DNA of 64,000 bases, from IMG/VR virus record IMGVR_UViG_3300026478_000263; one strand, 5' to 3'. Below the pieces are notes generated by a model. It worked only from the letters and a program-made list of their open reading frames with translations, was not told where the DNA came from and searched no databases. Source of the stretch: a virus. Lineage: Duplodnaviria; Heunggongvirae; Uroviricota; Caudoviricetes. A program made the position numbers and the translations under genes. Of this stretch, positions 39,449 through 50,897 are shown piece after piece. Each line of letters starts with the position of its first letter. Position 1 is the stretch's first letter.

Positions 39449-39525
39449 CGGTCCTTAACTCAATGGATTAGAGTGCCAGTCTTCGAAACTGGAGGTTGGG
39501 AGTTCGAGTCTCTCAGGGCCGGCCA
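39449..39525 (+). tRNA. tRNA-Arg (TCG)
   Basis: anticodon arm CCAGT-CTTCGAA-ACTGG, D-stem ACTC/GAGT. Confidence 0.75.
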
Positions 39526-39527
39526 AT

Positions 39528-39602
39528 GGTGTTGCTAGTGTAGTGGTCCGCACGGCTGTCTGTGAAACAGTAAGGCAGGGTTCGATTCCCGGCTTCACCC
39601 CA
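39528..39602 (+). tRNA. tRNA-His (GTG) with G-1
   Basis: anticodon arm GCTGT-CTGTGAA-ACAGT, extra 5' G pairing with C73, two U-U mismatches in acceptor stem. Confidence 0.6.
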
Positions 39603-39608
39603 AATATC

Positions 39609-39684
39609 GCCGCTTTAGCAAATGTGGTCATTGCACCGGTTTGAAGCACCGAGGAACTTGGTTCGATCCCAAGGGGCGGCACCA
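39609..39684 (+). tRNA. tRNA-Phe (GAA)
   Basis: anticodon loop TTGAAGC, T-arm CTTGG-TTCGATC-CCAAG. Confidence 0.75.
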
Positions 39685-39691
39685 TAATTAT

Positions 39692-39768
39692 GCCCTTGTA
39701 CGCTAATTGGTAATGCGAATGGATTTAAAATCCGTTGTGTGTAGGTTCGAATCCAACCAAGGGTACCA
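39692..39768 (+). tRNA. type-I (short variable arm) tRNA with anticodon TAA (Leu codon UUA) - atypical
   Basis: anticodon arm ATGGA-TTTAAAA-TCCGT, 5-nt variable loop, discriminator A, CCA encoded. Confidence 0.55.
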
Positions 39769-39769
39769 T

Positions 39770-39841
39770 GCCTCTGCTGATGGAGCAGTGCCAGGTCTTC
39801 TAAACCAGGTTATAGTAGTTCGAATCTACTCAGAGGCGCCA
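39770..39841 (+). tRNA. tRNA-Arg (TCT)-like, short D-arm
   Basis: perfect acceptor GCCTCTG/CAGAGGC, anticodon loop CTTCTAA, T-arm AGTAG-TTCGAAT-CTACT; 72 nt. Confidence 0.5.
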
Positions 39842-39843
39842 AG

Positions 39844-39917
39844 GCTCTTGTAGGTAAATGGTATACCAGTGTCTTGGTACGACACAATCGAAAGTTCGAT
39901 TCTTTCCTTGAGCACCA
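39844..39917 (+). tRNA. tRNA-Thr (GGT)
   Basis: anticodon arm GTGTC-TTGGTAC-GACAC; two U-U mismatches in acceptor. Confidence 0.65.
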
Positions 39918-39922
39918 GATAT

Positions 39923-40000
39923 ACCCCTGTGGACAAATTGGTAAAGTCGTCTCTCTCAAAAGGAGAAGTTCTCTCCGTTCGAATCGGAGCAGGGGTACCA
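39923..40000 (+). tRNA. type-I tRNA with anticodon CAA (Leu codon UUG) - atypical
   Basis: perfect acceptor ACCCCTG/CAGGGGT, anticodon arm TCTCT-CTCAAAA-GGAGA, 6-nt variable loop, discriminator A. Confidence 0.55.
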
Positions 40001-40046
40001 CATTTGTAGCAGATTCTATCTACAACGAATTATACAAGTAAAACAA

Positions 40047-40136
40047 CGAAGCGTGGCAGAGTCCGGTTTATTGCACCTGTCTTGAAAACAGACGATCCGA
40101 AAGGGTCCGTGAGTTCGAATCTCACCGCTTCGGCCA
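40047..40136 (+). tRNA. tRNA-Ser (TGA)
   Basis: class II, perfect acceptor CGAAGCG/CGCTTCG, anticodon loop CTTGAAA, long variable arm GATCC-GAAA-GGGTC. Confidence 0.8.
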
Positions 40137-40143
40137 AAAGGTG

Positions 40144-40172
40144 TTGACTTGTTTAACAGTTGATCGTATAAT
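40144..40172 (+). promoter_or_regulatory. sigma70 promoter TTGACT-17-TATAAT inside tRNA array
   Basis: consensus hexamers 9 nt upstream of tRNA-Ser(GCT). Confidence 0.55.
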
Positions 40173-40180
40173 ACAAATAT

Positions 40181-40275
40181 AGTGAGTTGGCCGAGCTGGT
40201 CGAAGGCACCTTCCTGCTAAGAAGGCATTCCTGCAAAAACGGGGATCAAGGGTTCGAATCCCTTACTCACTGCCA
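40181..40275 (+). tRNA. tRNA-Ser (GCT)
   Basis: class II, perfect acceptor AGTGAGT/ACTCACT, anticodon arm CCTTC-CTGCTAA-GAAGG. Confidence 0.8.
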
Positions 40276-40282
40276 AAATGTC

Positions 40283-40311
40283 TTGACTAGTTTCTAAAGT
40301 TCATATACAAT
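40283..40311 (+). promoter_or_regulatory. sigma70 promoter TTGACT-17-TACAAT inside tRNA array
   Basis: consensus hexamers upstream of tRNA-Tyr. Confidence 0.5.
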
Positions 40312-40362
40312 AGAGACTAGTTAAGAAATTAACCTAGTTCTTTAAAAATTTCAAGCAGATAT

Positions 40363-40448
40363 GGATGTGTAGGAAAATTGGTAACCCCAGTGGACTGTAA
40401 ATCCGCCGCCTTACGGCACTGCTGGTTCGACTCCAGCCGCATCCACCA
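40363..40448 (+). tRNA. tRNA-Tyr (GTA)
   Basis: class II, anticodon arm GTGGA-CTGTAAA-TCCGC, T-arm GCTGG-TTCGACT-CCAGC. Confidence 0.75.
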
Positions 40449-41093
40449 TTAAGAAATAGCATTGACGGGTATCGTCTATGGACGCATAGACTTATGAAGG
40501 ATAAGGCCATCTTACCCTTCTGAGAAAACCGTGAACAATGGCTTATGAGGAGAATCGAACTCCACTCAGAAATACGTTTCATCCCATAGGGTGTAATGTT
40601 ATTTTTTAATGGTAAAAATTTAAGGGTAGTTTATTATCCTGTTGGCGGTTCGCCGTTGACGAAGAATAAGTTGAGTGATCAACCCAAAGGAGGTAAGCCT
40701 ACGCAACTCCGCCAGTAATGGTTCATGTAAACAAGCCTGCTCACTACCGCGAGGTAGCGTTCACTGAGAAGACCGGTGGATGTAACAATGAAGCAAGTGT
40801 TAGGGAAAGAATGTGTATCGACTGGCCCGCAAGGGAACCAGGGTGCATGAAAAGTAACGGGTGGTGCTGACTTCCTAACAAAACCAACTTGCGAATTGGT
40901 ATGAGAAAGGGTAGTGTATTTGTCCAAGGGGTCGCTCCTAAGGGCTTGTATGCAATATTAATGGTTAGTGGACTGTTTTGATGCAGGACATTGATCGTGA
41001 AATATCACTGAGTAGTCCGCGAGACAAAAGGTATGTGGTGAGTTGTATTCAGTAATCCAAAAGGTTATTGAGCAACAGAGGCAGCTCATCGCG

Positions 41094-41169
41094 GTAGGTT
41101 TGATATAGCGTAATGGTAACGCAATTGCCTCTTAAGCAATGGACTGTTGGTTCGATCCCAACTATCGAT
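41094..41169 (+). tRNA. tRNA-Lys(CTT)-like, defective acceptor stem, no CCA (possible pseudo-tRNA)
   Basis: D-arm GCG-TAATGGTAA-CGC, anticodon arm ATTGC-CTCTTAA-GCAAT, T-arm GTTGG-TTCGATC-CCAAC; 5' acceptor pairs poorly. Confidence 0.3.
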
Positions 41170-41588
41170 TATAAAATGCAAAGACTGCCTCGGTCATATG
41201 TGAAAAGCATCTAATACTCGAGCCGCAAGGTAATCGAGTCAGACGTAGCTCGCAAGGTGAAATCTGTTTATGCTGGAAGTTTCGTAAGTGGTTAGCGCCG
41301 CTGAATGGCTCGCAAGGTCAACGGAGTAGATAGCGTAGAATAGCATATGGCGACAAGACTACTGCCTGTCTTTAAAAACGGCGATGCTGATAGTGGACAT
41401 AGGTACAGTAATGGCTTATGTGGATGTCTAGAGAAGGTTGGCTCGCAAGGCTGACTATAATGCTAGAGGCACTATTGGCTAACGTATAATCTCAGCGTTA
41501 GCACTATTCTAAAACACATTAGCTCGAACCGAATAACGGCATTATAAATGCTTCTGGTAGTTGGTTAGTGTGTTTCAGAATAGAATTT

Positions 41589-41665
41589 GCACCGTTAGCT
41601 CAGTTGGTCAGAGCGCCGGCCTGTCACGTCGGAGGCCAGGGGTTCAAGTCCCCTACGGTGCGCCA
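41589..41665 (+). tRNA. tRNA-Asp (GTC)
   Basis: perfect acceptor, anticodon loop CTGTCAC identical to the E. coli tRNA-Asp loop. Confidence 0.85.
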
Positions 41666-41679
41666 AGATAACTATTAAT

Positions 41680-42483
41680 ATGAAAACACTTTTAATTTTA
41701 GGAGATTGCCAAAGTAATGGCAATAATTGTTTGGCTGGTGACATAGTCAACGACGATGCTCCGAGGACTTGGAGTCTACGTTTCCATAATGATTTTAGAA
41801 GTGTTTTTAAATGGTATCTAAAACATAGAAAAGAAAACAATGTTACAACACCTATGCCCAATGGCAATATGGAAAATGTTGTTTGGCATTATCTATGGGA
41901 AGAAGAACAAAAAGCCGCATGGCCTAATTTCTTAAATGTTTCCAATGTAGTTAATATATCTATTAACGGTGGACATTTTATAGGTCATCACAAAAGATTA
42001 AAACAGTACCTAGCAGAGAATCCTAAACCGGATCATGTATTAGTTACAGATTACACGTTTAGTCATATAGCACACAGTTTCAAATATAACAATCAACGAT
42101 ATGTATTTGAACGTGAAAATTATGTAGACGGAGAATGGAATCCAGATAGATATCCAATTGAAGTTCATAAAAAGCGATTAAACGGTATTGCTTTTCAAAA
42201 AAGTCAAAGCAAAGATTGGCATATTCGTAGACATAGAAATGGTTACAATATGTTAATTAAGTTTTTAGATTCTCAAAATATTAAATGGACGACTGTTAGG
42301 TTTGGAGATCCTAATCCTGACAACTCAGAAATTTTTAAAGAGTTTATGCACACTGGTATAGATTGTACTGAATACGGAAAACAGTATATGAGTGCTAATG
42401 GTGAGAATGCAAAAATTAAATTGTCTGTGCAAGAAAAAATTGCAACGACAATTCAGGAATACTTAAATAGTATTGTCAGTTAA
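41680..42483 (+). CDS. SGNH/GDSL-like hydrolase (putative) embedded in tRNA array
   Basis: N-terminal LILGDCQSNGNN resembles the GDS(L) block; 267 aa intact ORF. Confidence 0.4.
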   Translation: MKTLLILGDCQSNGNNCLAGDIVNDDAPRTWSLRFHNDFRSVFKWYLKHRKENNVTTPMPNGNMENVVWHYLWEEEQKAAWPNFLNVSNVVNISINGGHFIGHHKRLKQYLAENPKPDHVLVTDYTFSHIAHSFKYNNQRYVFERENYVDGEWNPDRYPIEVHKKRLNGIAFQKSQSKDWHIRRHRNGYNMLIKFLDSQNIKWTTVRFGDPNPDNSEIFKEFMHTGIDCTEYGKQYMSANGENAKIKLSVQEKIATTIQEYLNSIVS

Positions 42484-42484
42484 T

Positions 42485-42568
42485 GCCCTGGTGGTGGAAT
42501 GGTAGACACGCTGGTCTTAGAAGCCAGTGGCGAGAGCCGTGAGAGTTCGAGTCTCTCCTGGGGCACCA
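42485..42568 (+). tRNA. tRNA-Leu (TAG)
   Basis: class II with 13-nt variable arm, anticodon arm CTGGT-CTTAGAA-GCCAG. Confidence 0.8.
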
Positions 42569-42574
42569 AAATAT

Positions 42575-42650
42575 GCGGGTGAAGTGTTTGTGGTTACACG
42601 TCAGTCTTCCAAACTGAAATAGACGAGTTCAACTCTCGCCTCCCGCTCCA
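42575..42650 (+). tRNA. tRNA-Gly (TCC)
   Basis: anticodon arm TCAGT-CTTCCAA-ACTGA; U-U at 6-67. Confidence 0.7.
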
Positions 42651-42655
42651 TCATT

Positions 42656-42732
<77 letters not shown>

Positions 42733-42742
42733 ATGTTAGTTT

Positions 42743-42817
42743 GCCTGGTTAGCTCAGTGGTAGAGCGTCTCGTTTACACCGAGAGGGTCGGCAGTTCGAA
42801 ACTGTCACCAGGTACCA
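42743..42817 (+). tRNA. tRNA-Val (TAC)
   Basis: anticodon arm TCTCG-TTTACAC-CGAGA. Confidence 0.8.
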
Positions 42818-42824
42818 AGTTTAT

Positions 42825-42900
42825 TCCCTAGTAGCTCAGCGGTAGTAGCACCTGACTGTTAATCAGGGTGTCGGTGGTTCGATCCCACCCTGGGGAGCCA
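42825..42900 (+). tRNA. tRNA-Asn (GTT)
   Basis: anticodon arm CCTGA-CTGTTAA-TCAGG. Confidence 0.8.
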
Positions 42901-42906
42901 AGTAAT

Positions 42907-42982
42907 GCACGGTTCGTCTATCGGTTTAGGACACTGGCCTTTCACGTCAGTAAGACGGGTTCGATTCCCGTACCGTGTACCA
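42907..42982 (+). tRNA. tRNA-Glu (TTC), second copy
   Basis: anticodon loop CTTTCAC as in E. coli tRNA-Glu. Confidence 0.75.
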
Positions 42983-43030
42983 TATATGGCCTTTGGATAA
43001 GTTATAAACTTTGCCTTAGGTTCTTCATAT

Positions 43031-43106
43031 GCGGGAGTAGCTCAGTTGGTAGAGCATTACCTTGCCAAGGTAAATGTCGCGAGTTCGAACCTCGTCTCCC
43101 GCTCCA
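43031..43106 (+). tRNA. tRNA-Gly (GCC)
   Basis: perfect acceptor GCGGGAG/CTCCCGC, anticodon arm TTACC-TTGCCAA-GGTAA. Confidence 0.85.
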
Positions 43107-43172
43107 GTTTTGCCAAAAGGCATTGATTTAGATTTAAAAGATTGTATAATAGAAACATTAAAGGAAAAACAA

Positions 43173-43745
43173 ATGAATATCTCCCTACGTAAGGCAAATG
43201 CACTTCAGAACAGTATCAACGATACCGTCAAAGGTTTCCAGTTTGAGACCACAGTAAAAATCAACGAGTTCCAAGAAGCGGAACAAGAAATTTCCAAAGT
43301 TGCAGGAACACTCTGCGACAACCTTACACGCAGAGATGCGTTAGTGGAAGCACTTTACGAGATTCGTAAAAGTGTCAGCGGTGCTAACACAGAAGTTAGA
43401 ATCGACACTAGATTGGCCGATGTTGCACATCTAGAAAAACAAATCCAATTCTACAACGGATTGGCTAGTAAGACCGTTCGCGAAAGCGCAAAGGTTGTAG
43501 CAGGTCGTTTGGACAAGATCCGTAACGACAAAAGCGAAAACCGTCGTAGCATCTATGGCTACAACGACACAGTAGACACTAGTGTGCTCACTCGTGAAGA
43601 TCTAGACGGATTCCGTCGTAGAGTGGCAACTGCTAAAAAGCAGAAACAAAAACTTCAGGATGAAATCCTAGAGTTAAATGTTCAGACAACTATCCAATTG
43701 TCTGACAAAACAGAAGCAGTTCTGCAAGCAGAAGGTTTACTGTAA
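43173..43745 (+). CDS. hypothetical coiled-coil protein
   Basis: AAAGGAAAAAC RBS then ATG at 43173 (track ORF 43074 N-terminus overlaps tRNA-Gly and was trimmed). Confidence 0.4.
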   Translation: MNISLRKANALQNSINDTVKGFQFETTVKINEFQEAEQEISKVAGTLCDNLTRRDALVEALYEIRKSVSGANTEVRIDTRLADVAHLEKQIQFYNGLASKTVRESAKVVAGRLDKIRNDKSENRRSIYGYNDTVDTSVLTREDLDGFRRRVATAKKQKQKLQDEILELNVQTTIQLSDKTEAVLQAEGLL

Positions 43746-44082
43746 CAGACCCCGCGTTAACTCAGCGTGATAGAGTTAGGTAATTGCTACACCTTAATGG
43801 CTCGGTGCATTGGATCTACCGCAAGGCTTGTTTAAAGCGACTTGAGAAATCACAAAGGCGGACCTCAGCACCGTCTAAATGGAAAGGCTAGTGGACAGAG
43901 TAACAGCTCGGTTTAGGGCTCCTGTGGTGGGAGTGGCTAGACACTTTATAAATGCTCTCTGAGCTGAACTACACTGGATAACACGAGTTAGGTGCTAAGT
44001 CGACTACCCACCGAAAGTGCCAGGAAGATAAGGAGCTCAGCAGGTTTCGTTCGAGTCGAACAGAGAGCACCTATAAAGTTAT

Positions 44083-44156
44083 CGCGGGATAGAGAAACGG
44101 TAACTCAAGAGTCTCATAAGCTCTAGATCCTGGTTCGATTCCAGGTCCCGCAACCA
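44083..44156 (+). tRNA. tRNA-Met (CAT) with C1-A72 mismatch (initiator-like acceptor end)
   Basis: begins CGCGGGA, ends TCCCGCAACCA as in bacterial tRNA-fMet; anticodon loop CTCATAA. Confidence 0.65.
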
Positions 44157-44695
44157 AGTTTTGGCAAAGGCGAAAGCCCGAGCCTGGAGTAGAGAAGGAG
44201 ATTAGGATAGACAGACTTAGGCTACATGCCTAAGGTTTGATCTCTTATAGAGACCGAACATCAACTACTGGCAAAACGTCTTGAAAACGTTTCGTGCTTG
44301 TGTGAACCAGTTCTATATATTAATCGACTTTGTGAGTTGCTAACTGGAAATATACAGGTCCCTGTGCTTTGCGCCTTGTGACTTGTTAAGGGTATCTTTA
44401 TAGAGCCCGCTTGTACATTGTCCAGTCTATTACTTGCCTTTCTCTCTCCACCCCTTTTATTAGTAAGTAGTTAAGGTTCTAAAAGCATCCGCAAGGAGTT
44501 AACAAAGATCGGAAGTTTTTGTTAATTGAAGTTATAAACTTTAATGCTGTAGAGTATATGTATCAAGCGCCGGTGCAAGGTGAGCGGATTGAGACTACAA
44601 GAACTTCATGTTGGGCTAGACAAAGAGAGGGACGAATCGCACCGTCGGATGGCCTTACCCAAACCAAAACTCTCGGGACATCTTACTAATAATCT

Positions 44696-44770
44696 GGTAA
44701 CGTAGCATAATGGTCGTGCACCTCCTTCATACGGAGCAAGGTGTGAGTTCGAATCTCACCGTTACCACCA
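44696..44770 (+). tRNA. tRNA-Met/Ile2 (CAT), second CAT tRNA
   Basis: perfect acceptor GGTAACG/CGTTACC, anticodon loop TTCATAC. Confidence 0.7.
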
Positions 44771-44793
44771 TAACACCATAATCTGCCCACTAA

Positions 44794-45249
44794 ATGCTAA
44801 ATAGTTATATGCTAACATTAATCAGAGAAACTACTAATCCATTACTTGACTATATCAAGGATGATCCAGTACGTCCAGAAATTCCCAAAGAATTTCGTGT
44901 TAGCGGTAGCAGATTTGTCGCCACCACTGTAGAAGGCGAAAAACCACGTGCAATGGTCTGTGTTAGTCTGCACGATTTTGTGCCAACAACTGTTGAAGAT
45001 TTGGCTAAAACACCCACAGAACCAACTACAGCAATCTTCTATACAATTTGGAGTTATGCGCCGGGTGCGGCCGCAGAGCTACTTTTTGGTGTAGTGGATC
45101 AAATAAAAGAACTTTTCCCAACTGTTAATCGTTTTGTAACACTTAGCCCAAAAACTGAAATGGCCTACAAGTTCCATATCAGAAATGGTGCCTGTGTGTT
45201 GCAAGAAAACGACAACACAGTGAACTACGAATACCTCATAACCCGTTGA
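44794..45249 (+). CDS. hypothetical protein
   Basis: 151 aa ORF between tRNA genes. Confidence 0.4.
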   Translation: MLNSYMLTLIRETTNPLLDYIKDDPVRPEIPKEFRVSGSRFVATTVEGEKPRAMVCVSLHDFVPTTVEDLAKTPTEPTTAIFYTIWSYAPGAAAELLFGVVDQIKELFPTVNRFVTLSPKTEMAYKFHIRNGACVLQENDNTVNYEYLITR

Positions 45250-45280
45250 CAAACTGCTGAAAAGGTTATATACTTAGTAT

Positions 45281-45388
45281 GTGACCGTGAGCGAATAGGC
45301 AGAGCTCCAGGACTGTTGTGAAACACTCCGTGGGTCGGGACTAGGCGATATGCCGTCCTTGGAGGTTCGAACCCTCCCGGTCACACCA
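45281..45388 (+). ncRNA. 108-nt tRNA-like RNA (canonical acceptor/T-arm/CCA, non-canonical 72-nt core)
   Basis: perfect 7-bp acceptor GTGACCG/CGGTCAC + A + CCA and T-arm GGAGG-TTCGAAC-CCTCC, but no standard D/anticodon arms could be folded. Confidence 0.4.
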
Positions 45389-45398
45389 AATTCCCTCC

Positions 45399-45473
45399 CT
45401 CGCTATAGTTCAATGGATAGAACGACTCTCTCCTAAAGAGTAAGTCTACGTTCGATTCGTAGTAGCGGGACCA
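45399..45473 (+). tRNA. tRNA-Arg (CCT)
   Basis: anticodon arm ACTCT-CTCCTAA-AGAGT, T-arm CTACG-TTCGATT-CGTAG. Confidence 0.8.
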
Positions 45474-45509
45474 ATTGACAAAATATTGAAGTGAAGATAT
45501 AATAATTGA

Positions 45510-45728
45510 ATGTATAAAGTAATATGGAAAGATGTAAACAAGAATGTTTACGAACGAGATTTTGATAATCTTGGCCCAGCAATGGATTGGGCAAAAACAT
45601 TGGCAGTATTTGTAACTATCAAAAGTAGCGAATACGAAATTGTTGGCATGTTTGGTGCTGACAGCATTGTAGATGGAAAGTGTCCAGACGGTGTAGATTA
45701 CACCTGGATGAAACGGCGAAAGCAGTAA
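45510..45728 (+). CDS. hypothetical small protein
   Basis: 72 aa ORF. Confidence 0.35.
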   Translation: MYKVIWKDVNKNVYERDFDNLGPAMDWAKTLAVFVTIKSSEYEIVGMFGADSIVDGKCPDGVDYTWMKRRKQ

Positions 45729-45737
45729 GGAGATATC

Positions 45738-46109
45738 ATGGGATATTGGGACAGAGAATATTGTAACGTTGATGTGTTGAAGGGCAAGACTTTGTCCAAC
45801 ATCAACGAGAGTGGCGACGAGATCGTTTTTGAAACCACAGATGGCGAACGCTATCGTATGTATCACGAGCAAGACTGTTGCGAAAGCGTAAGCATAGAAA
45901 GCATAGTCGGCGATTTGCAGGACTTAGTAGGTTCAGAGATTCTAATAGCAGAAGAAGTTGATGGCGAAAGCCCAGCCGACTTCGAAGCATACGAGTCTTA
46001 CACATGGACTTTCTACAAGTTTGCAACTCGCAAGGGTTATGTGGACATTCGTTGGCTAGGTCAATCGAATGGCTATTACAGTGAAAGAGTTGATTTTGTA
46101 AAGGAGTAA
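45738..46109 (+). CDS. hypothetical protein
   Basis: 123 aa; GGAG RBS. Confidence 0.4.
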   Translation: MGYWDREYCNVDVLKGKTLSNINESGDEIVFETTDGERYRMYHEQDCCESVSIESIVGDLQDLVGSEILIAEEVDGESPADFEAYESYTWTFYKFATRKGYVDIRWLGQSNGYYSERVDFVKE

Positions 46110-46111: not shown

Positions 46112-46480
46112 ATGTCAATGTACAACATGATATTTGGCATGAATCCCGATAGCGGAAAGTTACTTGAAATTCTAGGCAAAACTGCAAGCGACTTTGGTCG
46201 TTTCCGTAATGTCTATATGGATGAAGGTTACATTGTTGTTCATACACGTAATGGTGGTGGTAACCGTGAAGACTACGAAGATGTTTTTGATGAAATGTCA
46301 GAACATCCTTGGTACAGTCATGATGAGGACGACTCATTTGACTGCACTTATGCTAACATCTATTTCAAGGTTCCAGAAAACTACAAGGATTTTCTTGCTA
46401 TTATGAATCTTAACGAAGGTCAAAAGCCTAGTGAACAATGGGCTGAACTTTTCGGAATGATGGAAGCAATGAAAAAATAA
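46112..46480 (+). CDS. hypothetical protein
   Basis: 122 aa; tightly packed operon. Confidence 0.4.
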   Translation: MSMYNMIFGMNPDSGKLLEILGKTASDFGRFRNVYMDEGYIVVHTRNGGGNREDYEDVFDEMSEHPWYSHDEDDSFDCTYANIYFKVPENYKDFLAIMNLNEGQKPSEQWAELFGMMEAMKK

Positions 46481-46489: not shown

Positions 46490-46957
46490 ATGCCTTGGAT
46501 TGAAAATGTAGCCGCCGATGATATCCCAAAAAGATTTCATCACGAAGCAGGCGAAAATAGTATGCTGATTAGTATCGTTGACCCGGCGAGCTGGCGTCCT
46601 ACTCCTGCCCATAAGTTCAAGGAAATTCATAACTTTGAATTTTTGGACGTGGAGGAAAACGACCACGTAGACGACGAAGCAATGAAGTGTAGTCAAGAAC
46701 AAGCCAATCAACTTGTGGCTCTTTTACAACACGCTTTGGATAACAAAATGAACGTTGTTGTTCATTGTTTTGCTGGAATTTGTCGTAGCGGTGCTGTATG
46801 CGAAGTAGGCGTAATGCTGGGCTTTCAGGATACAGGGCGGTTTAGAAGCCCTAATCTGCTCGTTAAGCACAGAATGATGCGAGCCTTGGGTTGGACCTAC
46901 GATGCGGACGAAAAGCCCAACATCGACGATTGGCGCACATACAAGCCCGTTGTATAA
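46490..46957 (+). CDS. dual-specificity/protein-tyrosine phosphatase (CX5R)
   Basis: VHCFAGICRSGA active-site P-loop (HCxxGxxRS). Confidence 0.7.
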   Translation: MPWIENVAADDIPKRFHHEAGENSMLISIVDPASWRPTPAHKFKEIHNFEFLDVEENDHVDDEAMKCSQEQANQLVALLQHALDNKMNVVVHCFAGICRSGAVCEVGVMLGFQDTGRFRSPNLLVKHRMMRALGWTYDADEKPNIDDWRTYKPVV

Positions 46958-46984
46958 AAACAACATTTGCCCTGTCTTCGAGAG

Positions 46985-47013
46985 TTGACAGGGCGTTCTT
47001 TTGGCTGTATAAT
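46985..47013 (+). promoter_or_regulatory. sigma70 promoter TTGACA-17-TATAAT
   Basis: perfect hexamers upstream of 47038 gene. Confidence 0.6.
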
Positions 47014-47037
47014 ATAACAAGAAAGAAGAGCGAAAAA

Positions 47038-47586
47038 ATGAAAACATGGATTACAAGCGACTTACACTTTGGACATAAGAACATCATGAAGTTCTGTCCA
47101 GTGACGAGAGCACGATTTAAAGACGACGTTGCATATATGAACAACGCCATGGCCGAAGAATGGAACCATAAAGTCAAACCTGAAGACACAGTCTACATCT
47201 TAGGCGATGTAGCGTTCATGTCAGGTAGTGATGCTGGTAGAATGGTAAAGCGTTTGAATGGCACAAAGATTTTAATTAGAGGAAATCATGACCGTAAGAC
47301 ATTGATGGACGAAACGTTCCGTGGTGCGTTTGCAGAAGTACACGAGTATTTGGATATTACATATGATGGTCACAAGATTGTCATGTTTCACTATCCGATT
47401 GCTGAGTGGGATCAAATGCACAGAGGAGCATTACATTTTCATGGTCACTTACACGGAGGTGTTAGTGGATTAGAAAAGTATCGTGCATTCGATGTAGGTA
47501 TGGATTCAACCGGTGAGATTGTTGTGTCAATGGAATATGCGATTGGCAGAATTAAAAACAACGAAATTAAGGGTCATCATGTTTAA
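47038..47586 (+). CDS. metallophosphoesterase (calcineurin-like)
   Basis: DLHFGH, GDVAF, GNHD motifs; start trimmed to the Met after the promoter. Confidence 0.65.
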   Translation: MKTWITSDLHFGHKNIMKFCPVTRARFKDDVAYMNNAMAEEWNHKVKPEDTVYILGDVAFMSGSDAGRMVKRLNGTKILIRGNHDRKTLMDETFRGAFAEVHEYLDITYDGHKIVMFHYPIAEWDQMHRGALHFHGHLHGGVSGLEKYRAFDVGMDSTGEIVVSMEYAIGRIKNNEIKGHHV

Positions 47587-48463
47587 AGATGAATTGAAGG
47601 AGTATGTAAACACTAGTAACCTAGTCAACATGAAAGAATGTGGCGATGGTATCTATGTGCTAAAGTACAAGAAGAAAGTGTTCTACGATAACTTGTGGAA
47701 CGAATACATCGCCGAATGTCGAGGTACTATTGTAGACTCTGAGTTTAATGTAGTACAACGACCATTCACAAAGATCTATAACTATGGTATTGAAAAGGAA
47801 GCACCAGTGCTATCCGACGATACTGAGATCACAGCACTTCGTAAAGTTAACGGCTTTATGGTTGCTATGACTTGGCACAATGGAGATATCCTAGTTTCAA
47901 CAACAGGTTCTACTTCAGGCGAGTTTGTCGATATGGCAAAGGAATATATCACTGATAACTTCCGTGATGTACTAAGATGTGCCCCAGATTTTACTTTTAT
48001 GTTTGAGTGCGTTCATCCAACTGACCCACACATCATACCTGAAGAACCTGGACTGTACTTTATCGGATTCCGTCACAAAGACTGGAACGGTAAGTTATAC
48101 TACGAAAAGTTTACGCTAGAACCTTTGGGCAAGCATCTTGGATGCCTCCCTGTGGATATCTTTACTACTACAGTAGGCGAGTTAAAGGCTCTAGTAAAGA
48201 CTGTTAAGCACGAAGGTTTTGTATTCTATACTAAGGACGGCGTTGGTTCTAAGATCAAGTCACCTTACTACTTGACTTCAAAGTGGGTTGCTCGCAATCC
48301 ACGCACAGACAAGTTAGTAGACTTGAACAAAGACATCAAGCACAATTTAGACGAAGAATACTATCCACTAGTGGATGCTATCCGTGCTAACATTGAGGAG
48401 TATACTGCTATGGACGAGCAAGCTCGTTTATCTTGGGTACGCAACTATATGGAGACAGTATGA
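47579..48463 (+). CDS. RNA ligase-like nucleotidyltransferase (putative)
   Basis: KVNG lysine motif variant and overall Rnl-like length; ATG at 47579 overlaps upstream stop; sits next to a kinase and phosphoesterases. Confidence 0.5.
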   Translation: MFKDELKEYVNTSNLVNMKECGDGIYVLKYKKKVFYDNLWNEYIAECRGTIVDSEFNVVQRPFTKIYNYGIEKEAPVLSDDTEITALRKVNGFMVAMTWHNGDILVSTTGSTSGEFVDMAKEYITDNFRDVLRCAPDFTFMFECVHPTDPHIIPEEPGLYFIGFRHKDWNGKLYYEKFTLEPLGKHLGCLPVDIFTTTVGELKALVKTVKHEGFVFYTKDGVGSKIKSPYYLTSKWVARNPRTDKLVDLNKDIKHNLDEEYYPLVDAIRANIEEYTAMDEQARLSWVRNYMETV

Positions 48464-48693
48464 GATGTGAAGATGAAAGTCATTTGCCTGTAGCAGAGCA
48501 AAGCCTAGTGTTCCGCTTGTATAAACGAGCAGAGATACGTAGGCAGATTCCTGGCAGGTTAGCAGTCACAGAAGGTAAGCCCGACAAGATTGCTAACTTG
48601 TTAGAAGAAGCCGCAATGGAAATTCAAATGCTAAGGGCAACCTTAGCCGAAATCAGTAAGCATACAAAAGGAAGGGACAACTTTCAACCATGA
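48460..48693 (+). CDS. hypothetical small protein
   Basis: ATGA overlap start MRCEDESHL. Confidence 0.3.
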   Translation: MRCEDESHLPVAEQSLVFRLYKRAEIRRQIPGRLAVTEGKPDKIANLLEEAAMEIQMLRATLAEISKHTKGRDNFQP

Positions 48694-49148
48694 AGTGTTA
48701 TCAATTAATCGGAGTGCCAGGTGCAGGTAAGAGCACTTGGATTAAGAATCAAGACTGGGCTAAGGATATTCCTGTGGTTAGCACAGATAAGTTTGTGGAA
48801 GAATACGCTGAAAAAATGGGTAAAACCTACAACGAAGTTTTTGATGAATATATGCCTATTGCCGTAAAGTTGATGGCTAACCAAGTCGAAATTTGTAAGG
48901 CAAATAATTTAGATATCATCTGGGATCAGACCAGTGTTTCGATTAAGAGCCGTAAGCGTAAGTTCAATATGTTGCCTAACTATGAACATATTGCTGTGGT
49001 ATTTCCAACTCCTAAAAAGGAAGAATTGGATCGACGTTTAGCCAGTCGTCCAGGCAAGAACATTCCAGATTCAGTTATGCGTAGCATGATTGATACTTTT
49101 GAAATGCCAACCGAAGACGAAGGCTTTAAGGAAATCTGGAGAACTTGA
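48690..49148 (+). CDS. P-loop polynucleotide kinase-like protein
   Basis: Walker A GVPGAGKST at N-terminus, 152 aa, resembles T4 Pnk kinase domain / AAA_33. Confidence 0.55.
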   Translation: MKCYQLIGVPGAGKSTWIKNQDWAKDIPVVSTDKFVEEYAEKMGKTYNEVFDEYMPIAVKLMANQVEICKANNLDIIWDQTSVSIKSRKRKFNMLPNYEHIAVVFPTPKKEELDRRLASRPGKNIPDSVMRSMIDTFEMPTEDEGFKEIWRT

Positions 49149-49184
49149 CCTTCTCCAGATAACTATACTTTTAAGGAGTGTGGT

Positions 49185-49370
49185 ATGGTAGCAAGAAACG
49201 ACATCACAGGCGACTCTATTCAAACCAAAGGAGTCACTGACAACTATCGTAATAATTACGATAACATTTTTCGAAAAAATAAAAAGACAGATGCAGAAAA
49301 GTTTGATGAAGCAATAATGAAAAACGAATACTACGATTTGGACGAATCGAACGATAAACCCAAGAAGTAA
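49185..49370 (+). CDS. hypothetical small protein
   Basis: 61 aa ORF. Confidence 0.3.
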   Translation: MVARNDITGDSIQTKGVTDNYRNNYDNIFRKNKKTDAEKFDEAIMKNEYYDLDESNDKPKK

Positions 49371-49372
49371 AC

Positions 49373-49401
49373 TTGACTTTACATTAATAAGATAGTATAA
49401 T
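49373..49401 (+). promoter_or_regulatory. sigma70 promoter TTGACT-17-TATAAT
   Basis: consensus hexamers 8 nt upstream of gene 49409. Confidence 0.55.
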
Positions 49402-49408
49402 CATAAGC

Positions 49409-49771
49409 ATGGACTATCTAACTATTGCACTCATTCTATTGGCTTTACTTCAGGTTAAGCATTGGTACATTGACTTTGTTAATCAAAGTGACGAAGAGGT
49501 CAAGCATAAAGGAATTTATCTCGACTGGCGTGGCATTAAACACAGTCTAAAACACGGCTTTGGTACAACCGTAGTCGTGCTAACTGTGGCCAATCTTAAT
49601 GTAGCACTGGCTATGGGTGCGTTAGATTTTATAATGCACTACCACATAGACTGGGCTAAAATGAATTGGGGTAATAGAGATATTACTACTAAGGAATTTT
49701 GGAATCATTTAGGCCTAGATCAAATGGCTCATCAACTAGGTTATCTTTTAATCATTTTCATTCTGGTATAA
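49409..49771 (+). CDS. membrane protein
   Basis: 3-4 TM helices; 120 aa. Confidence 0.4.
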   Translation: MDYLTIALILLALLQVKHWYIDFVNQSDEEVKHKGIYLDWRGIKHSLKHGFGTTVVVLTVANLNVALAMGALDFIMHYHIDWAKMNWGNRDITTKEFWNHLGLDQMAHQLGYLLIIFILV

Positions 49772-49774
49772 TAT

Positions 49775-50308
49775 ATGGCACAACACTTAATGGTCGACTT
49801 GGAAACTCTTGACACAAAGACTACAGCAACTATTCTTACCTTGGGCGCAGTAAGGTTTGATCCGTTTACAAATGCACCCATGAAAGAACTTTATCTGCGT
49901 GTGGAGATAGACAGCCAAGATGCTCTAGGTTGTACTGTAAGCGACGACACACTAAAATGGTGGAATCAGCAGGATACTAACATCATGGAGGAAGCATTTG
50001 ATCCAAGGGATCGTATTCCAATCCATGAAGTTATTAATCAGTTTCATGCACTAGCATGGGGGTGCAGTCATTTTTGGAGTCACGGTGCTACTTTTGACTT
50101 AATGATTTTGCAGAATATCTACGAAAAATTAGGTCGTGCATATCCTTGGAACTTCTGGGAAATGCGTGACACACGTACATTGTTTGAACTAGCAGATCCT
50201 GAAATGCCGCAGGATGCAAAACACAATGCGTTAGAAGATGCTAAACGACAGGCTATAGGAGTGCGTAATGCCTACAGAAAACTCGGATTCACCGGATACA
50301 AACGTTAA
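49775..50308 (+). CDS. DEDDh 3'-5' exonuclease (DnaQ-like)
   Basis: Exo I motif MVDLETLDT and C-terminal HNALEDA (Exo III) motif. Confidence 0.65.
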   Translation: MAQHLMVDLETLDTKTTATILTLGAVRFDPFTNAPMKELYLRVEIDSQDALGCTVSDDTLKWWNQQDTNIMEEAFDPRDRIPIHEVINQFHALAWGCSHFWSHGATFDLMILQNIYEKLGRAYPWNFWEMRDTRTLFELADPEMPQDAKHNALEDAKRQAIGVRNAYRKLGFTGYKR

Positions 50309-50865: not shown

Positions 50866-50897
50866 CAAACTTTACCCGCTTCGGCGGGTATTTTTTT
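50866..50897 (+). terminator. rho-independent terminator
   Basis: CCCGCTTCGGCGGG hairpin + TATTTTTTTGA. Confidence 0.75.

What the first reader, a model, noticed from the sequence alone, without database searches (positions are those of the whole stretch)
46490..50308. RNA/DNA end-repair style gene set: phosphatase, metallophosphoesterase, RNA ligase-like, P-loop kinase, DEDDh exonuclease
The cluster sits directly after the tRNA array. It encodes a CX5R dual-specificity phosphatase, a calcineurin-like phosphoesterase, an Rnl-like nucleotidyltransferase, a Pnk-like P-loop kinase and a DnaQ-like exonuclease. T4 uses Pnk plus RNA ligase to heal tRNAs cleaved by host anticodon nucleases. The juxtaposition here suggests an analogous, but differently composed, tRNA repair or RNA-processing toolkit.
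Basis: inference. Interest (0 to 1): 0.6.

Follow-up and report, generated by a model that had tools for sequence, protein, structure and literature searches.

The report
Jumbo-phage RNA end-healing and ligation genes
Next to its large tRNA gene array, an uncultured freshwater-type jumbo phage carries a probable kit for mending cut RNA; this is a known kind of phage counter-defence, here with one unusual extra enzyme, a cysteine phosphatase.

Summary
All five enzyme genes are real and intact at the stated coordinates. It has the KxNG lysine and motifs III, IV and V, and both its profile and its predicted fold hit T4 RNA ligase 1 best.

The five genes are not one unit.
- The core is a translationally coupled operon behind a perfect sigma-70 promoter: metallophosphoesterase, short Rnl1-type ligase, a 77-aa protein, a Pnk-type kinase and a 61-aa ORF.
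- The cysteine phosphatase lies in the upstream transcription unit. It stays linked to the phosphoesterase and ligase in about 80 related jumbo-phage contigs despite many rearrangements. In more distant phages it sits beside the phosphoesterase, the kinase and tRNA arrays even without a ligase nearby.
- The DEDDh (DexA/Rv2179c-like) exonuclease has its own promoter and is linked to the ligase in 0 of 82 relatives. It is probably not part of the system.

A phosphoesterase–Rnl1–kinase module is already annotated in many cultured phages, such as rV5-like, Otagovirus, Pakpunavirus, ACP17 and RSP15. RNA repair next to tRNAs in jumbo phages has been reviewed. This is therefore a variant of a known kind. 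The new element is the phosphatase, which has one homologue in 50,697 phage records. All functions are inferred from homology and gene linkage.

The parts
37817..45473 (+). tRNA array: 31 tRNA genes covering 19 amino acids (no Ala). A GOLLD RNA is embedded at 41035-41498.
   Evidence: ARAGORN and Rfam. 31 of the window's 33 tRNA genes end in an encoded CCA.
45475..45503 (+). Perfect sigma-70 consensus promoter (TTGACA-17-TATAAT). It is the start of the unit orf72-DUF7448-orf122-DSP. The -10 box ends 6 nt before the orf72 ATG.
   Evidence: The window holds 20 consensus matches with at most 1 mismatch against 0.9 expected, 19 of them on the + strand.
45510..45728 (+). orf72, a 72-aa protein of unknown function. 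It co-travels with the module and with the cysteine phosphatase.
   Evidence: Present in 54 of 82 ligase-anchored loci. It lies next to the phosphatase in distant phages. No Pfam hit.
45738..46109 (+). DUF7448 protein (123 aa). In the closest relative it sits between the phosphoesterase and the ligase.
   Evidence: PF24240 at 4.1e-32. L003/L004 gene order. Found next to the phosphatase in distant loci.
46112..46480 (+). orf122, function unknown. It is only occasionally conserved near the module.
   Evidence: No family hit. Present in 9 of 82 loci.
46490..46957 (+). Stand-alone cysteine phosphatase of the DSP/PTP superfamily (155 aa). C93 and R99 lie in HCFAGICRSG. D53 in FLDVE is a candidate general acid. 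Proposed role: 3'- or 2'-phosphomonoesterase partner of the kinase and phosphoesterase.
   Evidence: Linkage evidence.
46985..47013 (+). Perfect sigma-70 consensus promoter of the core operon.
47038..47586 (+). Calcineurin-type metallophosphoesterase (182 aa, aq_1665/phrog_547 family). Proposed role: 2',3'-cyclic phosphodiesterase and 3'-phosphatase.
   Evidence: Motifs D8xH10, G56-D57, G82-N83-H84, H118 and G136-H137-x-H139 are invariant.
47579..48463 (+). Short Rnl1-family RNA ligase (294 aa). K89 in KVNG is the predicted adenylylation site. The C-terminal domain is reduced compared with T4 Rnl1.
48460..48693 (+). s77, a 77-aa basic protein predicted to be helical. ATGA overlaps couple it to the ligase upstream and the kinase downstream. 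Function unknown; it may be an adaptor.
   Evidence: Overlaps. Present after the ligase in 72 of 82 relatives. No homology to the small proteins at the same position in other phages.
48690..49148 (+). Stand-alone polynucleotide 5'-kinase-like P-loop kinase (152 aa) with K14/S15, D33 and R115/R119.
49185..49370 (+). s61, a 61-aa ORF and the last gene before the next promoter. It is not conserved in relatives.
   Evidence: 3 of 82 loci.
49373..49401 (+). Sigma-70-like promoter (11 of 12 positions match). It starts a separate unit: DUF3307, exonuclease, orf197.
49409..49771 (+). DUF3307 membrane protein. It lies inside the finding's range but is not part of the conserved module.
   Evidence: PF11750 at 1.5e-5 and phrog_2470 at 1.1e-16. 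Present in 3 of 82 loci.
49775..50308 (+). DEDDh 3'-5' exonuclease of the Rv2179c/T4 DexA family (177 aa). It is probably functionally separate from the repair module.
   Evidence: PF16473 at 131 bits. PDB 8kel 'Exodeoxyribonuclease' at 2e-4. Linked to the ligase in 0 of 82 relatives.
50873..50890 (+). Intrinsic terminator-like hairpin followed by a T-run. It ends the third unit.

Best explanation
The region encodes an early-expressed RNA end-healing and end-sealing system of an uncultured jumbo phage (about 330 kb).

**Core operon.** It runs from promoter 46985 and contains, in order, a metallophosphoesterase, a short Rnl1-type ligase, s77, a Pnk-type kinase and a 61-aa ORF.

**Proposed pathway.**
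1. [quoted passage not shown]
2. The metallophosphoesterase opens and removes the cyclic phosphate. This is by analogy with the phosphatase domain of Clostridium thermocellum Pnkp and with lambda phosphatase.
3. The cysteine phosphatase, encoded just upstream, clears the remaining 3'- or 2'-monophosphate.
4. The kinase phosphorylates the 5'-OH.
5. The ligase is adenylylated on K89 and seals the 3'-OH to the 5'-phosphate.

**Shown here.** Gene integrity, catalytic motifs, folds, homologies, operon anatomy and conserved linkage.

**Inferred.** Every enzymatic activity, the division of labour between the two phosphatases, the substrate (tRNA) and the role of s77.

The exonuclease and the DUF3307 gene form a separate unit and are not counted as part of the system.
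For: **Ligase**
- phrog_562 at 2.8e-50.
- A family profile hits T4 Rnl1 at 3.9e-10, with R54, K75, K99, G102, E159, E227/G228 and K240/K242 aligned to identical residues (8-sequence alignment). T4 F77 aligns with Y67, a conservative change.
- AF2 model pLDDT 88.8. Best fold hits are T4 Rnl1 at 5.7e-12, then fungal tRNA ligase Trl1.

**Kinase**
- AAA_33 at 9e-17, phrog_505 'polynucleotide kinase' at 7.5e-9, bacterial Pnkp model at 4e-7 and PDB Pnkp1 4xrp.
- tblastn hit to the C-terminal part of the phage RM378 protein annotated 'probable poly A polymerase', at 3e-6.
- P-loop, D33 and R115/R119 align with T4 Pnk K15, D35 and R122/R126.

**Phosphoesterase**
- All five metal-site motifs are invariant.

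**Operon anatomy**
- ATGA or 8-nt overlaps join phosphoesterase/ligase, ligase/s77 and s77/kinase.
- The promoter is a perfect consensus.

**Linkage within the clade**
- In loci with at least 6 kb on both sides of the ligase: phosphoesterase 21/21, s77 21/21, cysteine phosphatase 19/21, kinase 15/21, tRNAs 15/21.
- These genes occur in at least 20 different orders.

**Linkage across distant phages**
- Phosphoesterase or HD hydrolase, then Rnl1, then ATPase/kinase, in ACP17, RSP15, KNP2, M5.1, K8, 2L372X and VspSw_1.
- In distant loci the cysteine phosphatase lies next to the phosphoesterase (27/60 within 1.5 kb), overlaps the kinase gene (L127) and lies near tRNA arrays (21/36 within 4 kb), even without a ligase nearby.

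**Literature**
- Jumbo phages pair ATP-dependent RNA ligases with polynucleotide kinases and phosphoesterases, occasionally of the calcineurin-like or HD type, alongside tRNAs (PMC7824862).
- CthPnkp and lambda phosphatase have 2',3'-cyclic phosphodiesterase activity (PMC2190708).
Against: - No biochemical data exist for this short Rnl1 subfamily, for the aq_1665-type phosphoesterase or for this cysteine phosphatase family.
- T4 Rnl1 K119, which I recall as essential in T4, is Thr (STTGS) throughout the subfamily.
- The C-terminal domain is about 58 residues shorter than in T4. As I recall, that domain gives T4 Rnl1 its tRNA specificity.
- The window's ligase gets no Pfam hit on its own. It scores far below the NCBIfam equivalog cut-off (31.7 against 242).
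- The kinase is missing within 6 kb in 6 of 21 well-covered relatives.
- The phosphatase fold match is generic DUSP, with no special resemblance to RNA phosphatases.
- The phosphatase and phosphoesterase often occur with no ligase within 8 kb, so they may have another shared role.
- Linkage among relatives with about 70% identity partly reflects shared ancestry.
- Distant cultured phages with the module often have no tRNAs nearby.
Confidence: 0.68

Rival explanations
1. The module serves routine maturation or quality control of the phage's own RNA island rather than repair of nuclease damage. That island comprises the 31-gene tRNA array, the tRNA embedded in the GOLLD RNA and the two-piece permuted tmRNA. 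The enzymes would trim phosphorylated ends and join or circularise processing intermediates.
For: - The module lies in a dense RNA-gene island: tRNAs, GOLLD at 41035-41498 and a permuted tmRNA at 26466-26908.
- tRNAs lie within 6 kb of the ligase in 15 of 21 relatives.
- The cysteine phosphatase often abuts tRNA arrays even without a ligase.
- The GOLLD-embedded tRNA-Lys lacks an encoded CCA.
Against: - Bacterial tRNA and tmRNA maturation normally yields 3'-OH and 5'-phosphate ends through RNase P/Z/E and exonucleases, and needs no ligase (general knowledge).
- The same phosphoesterase-Rnl-kinase module occurs in cultured phages with no tRNA within 5-8 kb: KNP2, M5.1 and ACP17.
- The closest characterised relatives work in break repair (T4 Rnl1/Pnkp) or in tRNA splicing (fungal Trl1).
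Confidence: 0.12
2. The two phosphatases, and perhaps the kinase, act on small molecules or proteins rather than RNA ends. Examples would be degrading cyclic-nucleotide immune signals or dephosphorylating host proteins. Their adjacency to the ligase would then be early-region synteny without a shared pathway.
For: - The cysteine phosphatase has a generic dual-specificity protein phosphatase fold.
- The phosphoesterase's only other structural relative by sequence is the phosphodiesterase GpdQ, and that match is weak.
- The phosphatase-phosphoesterase pair occurs without a ligase within 8 kb in many distant loci.
- Calcineurin-like phosphodiesterases in jumbo phages have been proposed to attack nucleotide signals (PMC7824862).
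Against: - Translational coupling joins phosphoesterase/ligase and ligase/s77/kinase.
- The phosphoesterase is next to an Rnl1-type ligase in six very different cultured phage lineages.
- The phosphatase gene overlaps a Pnk-type kinase gene in L127.
- The kinase carries the T4 Pnk-like lid arginines.
Confidence: 0.12
3. All five enzymes, including the DEDDh exonuclease, form one tRNA repair or processing toolkit. The exonuclease would trim damaged 3' ends before ligation.
For: - The genes lie close together on one strand.
- The exonuclease family is named for a 3'-5' exoribonuclease (PF16473).
- RNase effectors can remove extra nucleotides, so end-trimming or end-restoring steps are plausible (PMC7824862).
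Against: - The exonuclease lies behind its own promoter, together with a membrane protein.
- No exonuclease homologue lies within 8 kb of the ligase in 82 relatives.
- None lies near the phosphatase in 79 of 80 distant loci.
- Its solved relative is the entry 8kel 'Exodeoxyribonuclease', 227 aa. I take this to be T4 DexA, a DNA exonuclease (the identification is from my own knowledge).
Confidence: 0.06

Closest known systems
T4 Pnkp (pseT) plus RNA ligase 1 (rnlA), the tRNA repair pathway that counters the PrrC anticodon nuclease
   Same: - Rnl1-clade ligase with the same catalytic residues.
- Pnk-type kinase with P-loop, Asp general base and lid arginines.
- Kinase and ligase genes lie close together in T4 as well; pseT and rnlA are about 1.4 kb apart.
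- Early expression from host-type promoters is plausible.
   Different: - The kinase is a stand-alone 152-aa protein without the HAD (DxDxT) phosphatase domain.
- The phosphatase function is presumably supplied by a separate metallophosphoesterase and a cysteine phosphatase.
- The ligase is 80 aa shorter, with a reduced C-terminal domain.
- Thr replaces T4 K119.
- A clade-specific 77-aa protein is inserted between the ligase and the kinase.
Phosphoesterase-RNA ligase-ATPase/kinase modules annotated in cultured phages: Vequintavirinae (KNP2, 4MG), Otagovirus M5.1, Pakpunavirus K8, Plateaulakevirus 2L372X, Busanvirus ACP17 and Ralstonia phage RSP15
   Same: - Same short Rnl1 subfamily, 36-48% identical, with STTGS and the short C-domain.
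- Same aq_1665-type phosphoesterase, 35-43% identical.
- Same gene order: phosphoesterase, ligase, small protein, P-loop NTPase.
   Different: - Their P-loop 'ATPase' is a different, shorter subfamily without the RxxxR lid.
- They often add an HD phosphohydrolase.
- None has the cysteine phosphatase within the 3.5-8 kb flanks examined.
- The interposed small proteins are unrelated to s77.
- Most are not next to tRNA arrays.
Bacterial Pnkp/Hen1 and Pnkp1-Rnl-Hen1 RNA repair systems (Clostridium thermocellum, Capnocytophaga gingivalis)
   Same: - Same chemical logic and the same three enzyme classes: P-loop kinase, binuclear metallophosphoesterase, ATP-dependent ligase.
- The kinase matches the bacterial Pnkp model TIGR04075 at 4e-7 and PDB Pnkp1 4xrp at 2.9e-3.
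   Different: - Here the three activities are separate small proteins, not one fused polypeptide.
- The ligase is Rnl1-type.
- No Hen1 methyltransferase was seen among the cluster genes.
- The phosphoesterase belongs to a different subfamily; it gave no detectable sequence hit to the CthPnkp phosphatase.
HD-Pnk enzymes (phage RM378 Pnk; Runella slithyformis HD-Pnk)
   Same: The kinase is most similar to the C-terminal kinase domain of the RM378 protein (28% identity, 3e-6) and to phrog_6931, which has the same architecture.
   Different: No HD domain is fused or adjacent in this window. Phosphate removal must be done by other folds.
DSP-PTPase domains predicted in RNA repair proteins (Pfam PF22784 'Swiss Army Knife protein, DSP-PTPase phosphatase domain') and cysteine-phosphatase RNA 5'-triphosphatases (baculovirus BVP, PIR1; from my own knowledge)
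   Same: - HCX5R(S) cysteine phosphatase fold.
- Weak match to PF22784 (4.8e-4, 20.6 bits).
- Genomic association with RNA repair enzymes.
   Different: - The score is below the family cut-off of 27.
- This is a stand-alone 155-aa protein with no fusions among 150 representatives.
- A conserved Asp (D53) suggests monoester chemistry with a general acid rather than triphosphatase chemistry. This is inference.

Membership tests
Rnl1 family RNA ligases (T4 RnlA type) | Motif I lysine nucleophile (KxxG) | tested here: met
   K89-V-N-G92 aligns with T4 K99-E-D-G102. K89 and G92 are invariant in 46 relatives.
Rnl1 family RNA ligases (T4 RnlA type) | Nucleotidyltransferase motifs III, IV and V (T4 E159, E227-G228, K240/K242) | tested here: met
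   E143, E212-G213 and K225/K227 align and are invariant.
Rnl1 family RNA ligases (T4 RnlA type) | Rnl1-specific N-terminal elements (T4 R54, K75, F77) | tested here: met
   R48 in ECRG and K65 in PFTKIYN align with T4 ECRG and PMEKFFN. T4 F77 aligns with Y67, a conservative change.
Rnl1 family RNA ligases (T4 RnlA type) | T4 Lys119 (recalled as essential in T4) conserved | tested here: not met
   T4 KSKGS aligns with the invariant STTGS, so K119 corresponds to T109. The same holds in all short Rnl1-like ligases of cultured phages.
Rnl1 family RNA ligases (T4 RnlA type) | Full C-terminal helical domain (T4 residues 255-374) that confers tRNA specificity | tested here: not met
   Only about 55 residues follow motif V. 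There are 11-aa and 47-aa deletions relative to T4, although the DxEY segment and the last helix align. The model shows 4-5 short helices there.
Rnl1 family RNA ligases (T4 RnlA type) | Overall fold closest to Rnl1 | tested here: met
   Foldseek top hits are T4 Rnl1 structures 9do4, 2c5u and 5tt6 at 5.7e-12 to 7.7e-12. They rank ahead of Trl1, Rnl3, Rnl2 and DNA ligases.
Rnl1 family RNA ligases (T4 RnlA type) | Curated model thresholds (NCBIfam TIGR02308 equivalog; Pfam PF09511) | tested here: not met
   TIGR02308 scores 31.7 bits against a cut-off of 242. The window protein has no Pfam hit at E<=0.1, although many relatives at 70% identity carry a precomputed PF09511 hit. It is a member of the clade, not an equivalog of T4 RnlA.
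Rnl1 family RNA ligases (T4 RnlA type) | ATP-dependent sealing of 3'-OH/5'-PO4 RNA ends | not testable with these tools
   Needs enzymology.
Polynucleotide 5'-kinase (T4 Pnk / RM378 Pnk kinase domain) | P-loop GxxGxGK(S/T), Asp general base and lid arginines (T4 K15, S16, D35, R122/R126) | tested here: met
   G8-T16, D33, R115 and R119 align in an 8-sequence alignment with T4 and RM378. T4 R38 is not conserved; it is Val here and Met in RM378.
Polynucleotide 5'-kinase (T4 Pnk / RM378 Pnk kinase domain) | Significant sequence similarity to characterised polynucleotide kinases | tested here: met
   RM378 protein at 3e-6, and phage genes annotated as polynucleotide kinase. phrog_505 at 7.5e-9. 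TIGR04075 at 4.3e-7, far below its whole-protein cut-off because only the kinase domain is present. BLAST against T4 Pnk finds only the P-loop.
T4-type bifunctional Pnkp | Fused HAD (DxDxT) 3'-phosphatase domain | tested here: not met
   The protein is 152 aa and consists of the kinase domain only.
Bacterial Pnkp/Hen1 system | Kinase, metallophosphoesterase and ligase fused in one polypeptide, partnered with a Hen1 2'-O-methyltransferase | tested here: not met
   There are three separate genes. No methyltransferase was found among the cluster genes scanned. The rest of the genome was not available.
Calcineurin-like metallophosphoesterases | Five metal-binding motifs: DxH, GD, GNH(D/E), H, GHxH | tested here: met
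   D8/H10, G56-D57, G82-N83-H84-D85, H118 and G136-H137-x-H139 are invariant across 7 diverse homologues. PF00149 scores 32.9 against a cut-off of 21.5.
Calcineurin-like metallophosphoesterases | 2',3'-cyclic phosphodiesterase or 3'-phosphatase activity on RNA (as in CthPnkp and lambda phosphatase) | not testable with these tools
   The only solved relative is aq_1665, whose function is unknown.
Cysteine phosphatases (DSP/PTP superfamily) | HCX5R(S/T) P-loop on a DUSP-type fold | tested here: met
   H92-C93-F-A-G-I-C-R99-S100, with H, C, G, R and S invariant. The AF2 model (pLDDT 85) matches VH1, DUSP12 and DUSP28 at E 3e-4 to 1e-3. Tc-R-P and Y_phosphatase score above their cut-offs; DSPc scores below its cut-off.
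Cysteine phosphatases (DSP/PTP superfamily) | Substrate class: protein, RNA end or lipid | not testable with these tools
   The only evidence is linkage to the phosphoesterase, kinase, ligase and tRNAs.
DEDDh exonucleases, Rv2179c-like/DexA family | DxE, D and Hx4D motifs, and the family model threshold | tested here: met
   D8-x-E10, D108 and H150-x4-D155 are present. PF16473 scores 131 bits against a cut-off of 27. PDB 8kel matches at 2e-4.
Membership of the exonuclease in the repair module | Conserved linkage or co-transcription with the ligase, kinase and phosphoesterase | tested here: not met
   The exonuclease is linked in 0 of 82 ligase-anchored loci. A separate promoter lies at 49373.

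The most novel reading that the evidence does not exclude
The stand-alone HCX5R cysteine phosphatase is a polynucleotide end-healing enzyme. It would act as a 3'- or 2'-phosphomonoesterase alongside a Pnk-type kinase and a metallophosphoesterase. That would add a cysteine-phosphatase class to the known end-healing phosphatases (HAD, metallophosphoesterase, HD and 2H).

Together with orf72, DUF7448 and s77, it would form part of a phage 'translation-protection island' with the tRNA array, the GOLLD RNA and the tmRNA.

One sub-variant: the short Rnl1 ligase has a predicted fold that resembles fungal Trl1 about as well as it resembles T4 Rnl1. It might seal 2'-phosphate ends, with the cysteine phosphatase then removing the junction 2'-phosphate.
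Probability: 0.3. Interest if true: 0.55.

Novelty: new variant of a known kind. Interest (0 to 1): 0.35.

Why it matters
tRNA-cleaving defences such as PrrC, RloC, PARIS, retrons and Cas13 are now seen as a major arm of bacterial immunity. Phage tRNA arrays are viewed as one counter-measure, and RNA repair is the other.

This locus puts both counter-measures side by side in a very abundant group of uncultured jumbo phages. These phages probably infect freshwater Betaproteobacteria. The module itself, phosphoesterase-Rnl1-kinase, is widespread in cultured phages. As far as I could find, none of its three enzyme subfamilies has been characterised biochemically.

The new point is a small cysteine phosphatase that stays tied to the phosphoesterase, the kinase and tRNA arrays. 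If it works on RNA ends, it would be a new class of end-healing enzyme and possibly a useful reagent. If not, the finding is an ordinary example of a known phage strategy.

Tried and rejected
1. **Nucleotide search of 46000-51000 against 50,697 phage records.** No match. The phage has no close cultured relative.
2. **Single-sequence PDB search with the ligase.** Nothing found. A family profile was needed.
3. **Burroughs & Aravind 2016 (NAR, RNA repair systems).** This is the key comparative paper, but the library does not hold it. Statements about it rest on my memory and on its citation in PMC7824862.
4. **Bacterial homologues of the cysteine phosphatase, sought for context.** The genome-contig scan returned only two short MAG contigs of about 2.6-2.7 kb. 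That is uninformative, and the family looks restricted to phages.
5. **Domain fusions of the cysteine phosphatase.** The 150 best representatives are all stand-alone proteins, and the few longer ones carry no second Pfam domain.
6. **The one cultured-phage homologue of the phosphatase (Synechococcus phage BUCT-ZZ01).** It sits among unannotated genes with no tRNAs.
7. **Homology between s77 and the small proteins at the same position in ACP17, KNP2 and M5.1.** None.
8. **Homology between the window's kinase and the ACP17 'ATPase'.** P-loop only. They are different subfamilies.
9. **PADLOC scan of ten cluster proteins.** No defence-system matches apart from a generic DEDDh hit for the exonuclease.
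10. **Literature search for experiments on the phosphoesterase-Rnl1-kinase phage module.** None found.
11. **Rejected: the long TTG ORF 46891-47586 as the phosphoesterase gene.** The ATG at 47038 follows the promoter at 46985-47013 and matches the N-termini of the homologues.
12. **Rejected: the GTG start at 47513 for the ligase.** Homologues start at the MFKDELKEY of the ATG at 47579.

Full report
**What the window is**

The window comes from an uncultured jumbo phage. Nearly all genes are on the + strand.
- It encodes DnaK (3768-5633), ClpP, RIIA and an ATP-dependent DNA ligase.
- It carries 33 tRNA genes.
- Rfam also finds a permuted, betaproteobacterial-type tmRNA (26466-26908) and a full-length GOLLD RNA (41035-41498).
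- It has no nucleotide-level relative among 50,697 deposited phage genomes.
- The ligase has thousands of metagenomic homologues, many on contigs of 330-370 kb.
- Among cultured phages, the nearest ligase homologues belong to phages of Burkholderiales hosts: Acidovorax ACP17, Variovorax and Ralstonia RSP15.

**Checking the observation**

- **Cysteine phosphatase (46490-46957).** It carries HCFAGICRSG. Two Pfam cysteine-phosphatase models pass their cut-offs, though DSPc does not. The AlphaFold model (pLDDT 85) has a dual-specificity phosphatase fold.
- **Metallophosphoesterase.** It starts at the ATG at 47038, not at the upstream TTG. All five metal-binding motifs are present.
- **Ligase.** It starts at the ATG at 47579.
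- **Kinase (48690-49148).** It is an AAA_33 P-loop kinase.
- **Exonuclease (49775-50308).** It is a clear member of the Rv2179c-like DEDDh family at 131 bits. Its solved relative is the PDB entry 8kel 'Exodeoxyribonuclease', which I take to be T4 DexA.

The last tRNA ends at 45473, and three small ORFs lie between it and the phosphatase.

- A profile of the family hits T4 RNA ligase 1 (PDB 2c5u) at E = 3.9e-10 over the whole nucleotidyltransferase domain.
- Pairwise BLAST against T4 RnlA gives 3e-7.
- Aligned residues include K89 (KVNG; T4 K99), R48 (R54), K65 (K75), E143 (E159), E212-G213 (E227-G228) and K225/K227 (K240/K242).
- The AlphaFold model (pLDDT 88.8) matches T4 Rnl1 best (5.7e-12). 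Next come the fungal tRNA ligase Trl1 and archaeal Rnl3; Rnl2 and DNA ligases match only distantly.

Two differences from T4 are shared with a large subfamily of short Rnl1-like ligases in cultured phages.
- T4 K119 is Thr, within STTGS.
- The C-terminal domain is about 58 residues shorter.

It also falls far below the NCBIfam equivalog threshold. It is therefore an Rnl1-clade ligase but not an equivalog of T4 RnlA.

**The kinase**

Its best matches are polynucleotide kinases.
- phrog_505, the bacterial Pnkp model and Pnkp1 of the Capnocytophaga repair complex.
- The C-terminal part of a phage RM378 protein annotated 'probable poly A polymerase'. I recall this as the characterised RM378 5'-kinase/3'-phosphohydrolase, with an HD domain followed by a kinase domain.

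In alignment, the P-loop, D33 and R115/R119 coincide with T4 Pnk K15/S16, D35 and R122/R126. The protein has no phosphatase domain.

**Anatomy**

Consensus sigma-70 promoters are strongly enriched in the window. There are 20 with at most one mismatch against 0.9 expected, and 19 are on the + strand. Three of them divide the region.

| Promoter | Genes in the unit |
|---|---|
| 45475 | orf72, DUF7448, orf122, cysteine phosphatase |
| 46985 | phosphoesterase, ligase, s77, kinase, s61 |
| 49373 | DUF3307, exonuclease, orf197, ending at a strong terminator at 50873 |

Within the second unit the genes overlap by 8, 4 and 4 nt, which indicates translational coupling.

**Conservation within the clade**

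I fetched 80 viral contigs carrying a ligase 67-72% identical, plus three other loci. I located homologues of every gene with jackhmmer.

In loci with at least 6 kb on both sides of the ligase:

| Feature within 6 kb of the ligase | Loci |
|---|---|
| Phosphoesterase | 21/21 |
| s77 | 21/21 |
| Cysteine phosphatase | 19/21 |
| Kinase | 15/21 |
| orf72 | 15/21 |
| tRNAs | 15/21 |
| Exonuclease | 0/21 |

- The exonuclease is absent from all 82 loci overall.
- The linked genes occur in at least 20 different orders, and tRNAs lie sometimes upstream and sometimes downstream.
- Linkage is therefore kept through repeated rearrangement.
- The phosphatase is the most conserved protein of the set. It is 80-91% identical where the ligase is about 70% identical.

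**Conservation across distant phages**

The order phosphoesterase, Rnl1-like ligase, small protein, P-loop ATPase/kinase recurs widely, often with an HD hydrolase as well. I found it in:
- Busanvirus ACP17 and Ralstonia phage RSP15, the latter just downstream of its tRNAs;
- Vequintavirinae (KNP2), Otagovirus (M5.1) and Pakpunavirus (K8);
- Plateaulakevirus (2L372X);
- a Vibrio T5-like phage, where an HD hydrolase accompanies the ligase and no phosphoesterase or ATPase is annotated.

Some of these genes are already annotated 'RNA ligase/RNA repair' or 'polynucleotide kinase'. A review of jumbo phages states that ATP-dependent RNA ligases co-occur with polynucleotide kinases and phosphoesterases, occasionally calcineurin-like or HD, alongside tRNAs, as a counter to tRNA-cleaving defences (PMC7824862). 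The module type is therefore known from comparative genomics. I found no biochemical study of it.

**The cysteine phosphatase is the unusual part**

- It has one homologue in 50,697 phage records.
- Bacterial genomes yielded only two short, fragmentary MAG contigs with a homologue.
- It forms 747 clusters of stand-alone proteins of about 140 aa in a 1.8-billion-protein library, with no fusions.

I anchored on divergent members and fetched 80 more viral loci.
- The phosphatase is next to a phosphoesterase in 27 of 60 loci (within 1.5 kb).
- It is sometimes followed by an overlapping Pnk-type kinase gene (L127: phosphatase 7998-8477, kinase 8465-8944, phosphoesterase 9011-9616).
- It lies within 4 kb of tRNA arrays in 21 of 36 loci.
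- An Rnl1 ligase is within 4 kb in only 5 of 36.

So the phosphatase belongs with the end-healing enzymes and the tRNA island rather than with the ligase as such. Its fold match is generic, and its substrate cannot be decided by computation.

**Interpretation**

The best explanation, at about 0.68 confidence, is an early-expressed RNA healing-and-sealing system.
- The phosphoesterase opens and removes 2',3'-cyclic phosphates. CthPnkp and lambda phosphatase do this (PMC2190708).
- The cysteine phosphatase removes the remaining monoester.
- The kinase phosphorylates 5'-OH ends.
- The ligase seals.
- The likely substrates are tRNAs cut by host anticodon nucleases.

All activities are inferred.

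Rival explanations:
- maturation of the phage's own RNA island (0.12);
- phosphatases acting on non-RNA substrates, with the adjacency being mere synteny (0.12);

**Verdict**

The exonuclease should be dropped and the phosphatase singled out. This is a new variant of a known kind, of moderate interest. The testable new idea is a cysteine-phosphatase class of RNA end-healing enzyme.

Noticed in passing
window 41035-41498 (+): A full-length GOLLD RNA (Rfam RF02032, 207 bits against a gathering score of 150) lies inside the tRNA array. It encloses tRNA-Lys(ctt) at 41098-41171, one of only two tRNA genes here whose called 3' end is not an encoded CCA. GOLLD RNAs with tRNAs in their linker, near phage tRNA islands, are described in PMC12286853. 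Here one sits about 5 kb upstream of an RNA repair module.
   Followed up: partly
window 26466-26908 (+): A permuted (two-piece) tmRNA of the betaproteobacterial type (RF01850 at 129 bits, RF04321 at 138 bits; ARAGORN tag peptide ANASTFEYFTVEGFTADNGLVAA). It points to a betaproteobacterial host. A related phage contig (L018, 5575-6000) encodes an SmpB-like protein. No SmpB was found in this window.
   Followed up: partly
window 32620-32693 (+): An isolated tRNA with a CTA anticodon (amber suppressor; ARAGORN calls it 'Pyl') scores 38 bits in Rfam. It may signal stop-codon reassignment or suppression late in infection.
   Followed up: no
window 37983-38072 (+): tRNA-Ile with a TAT anticodon is 90 nt long, unusually long for a class I tRNA. 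It may have an insertion or an intron.
   Followed up: no
whole window, e.g. 26923, 28394, 30312, 31517, 37031, 45475, 46985: There are twenty near-perfect sigma-70 consensus promoters (TTGACA-17-TATAAT, at most 1 mismatch) against 0.9 expected by chance, and 19 are on the + strand. At 45475 and 49373 the -10 box ends 6-7 nt before the ATG, which suggests leaderless mRNAs.
   Followed up: partly
L032 7232-7444 and L053 7235-7447 (relatives), next to the phosphoesterase gene: A 70-aa ORF resembles the C-terminal part of a class I peptide release factor (…GDKIRTYRFQDDRVQDH…). In L005 a 35-aa gene has a weak PCRF hit. Release-factor fragments sit inside the tRNA/RNA-repair island of related phages.
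   Followed up: no
L005 590-3737 (348-kb contig JACCDX010554180.1): Three fatty-acid desaturase (PF00487) genes lie in a row, a few kb upstream of the ligase in a related jumbo phage. This is unusual auxiliary metabolism for a phage.
   Followed up: no
L087, L088, L174, L176 (cultured phages KNP2, M5.1, K8, VspSw_1): The phosphoesterase-Rnl1-kinase module of cultured phages sits next to NAD+ salvage genes (nicotinamide or nicotinate phosphoribosyltransferase, PRPP synthetase), Sir2 and a macrodomain protein. This window's module has no such neighbours.
   Followed up: no
window 3768-5633, 23185-23748, 31607-32407, 35485-36024: The phage encodes DnaK/Hsp70 (about 68% identical to bacterial DnaK), ClpP, a Band-7/SPFH protein and an AhpC-type peroxiredoxin. 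This is a large set of host-like proteostasis and stress genes.
   Followed up: no
window 45510-45728 and 45738-46109; L095-L101: orf72 (conserved …EIVGMFG.DSI.DG.CPDG…) and a DUF7448 protein repeatedly sit just upstream of the cysteine phosphatase and beside tRNA arrays, even in distant phages that lack the ligase. Their function is unknown.
   Followed up: partly
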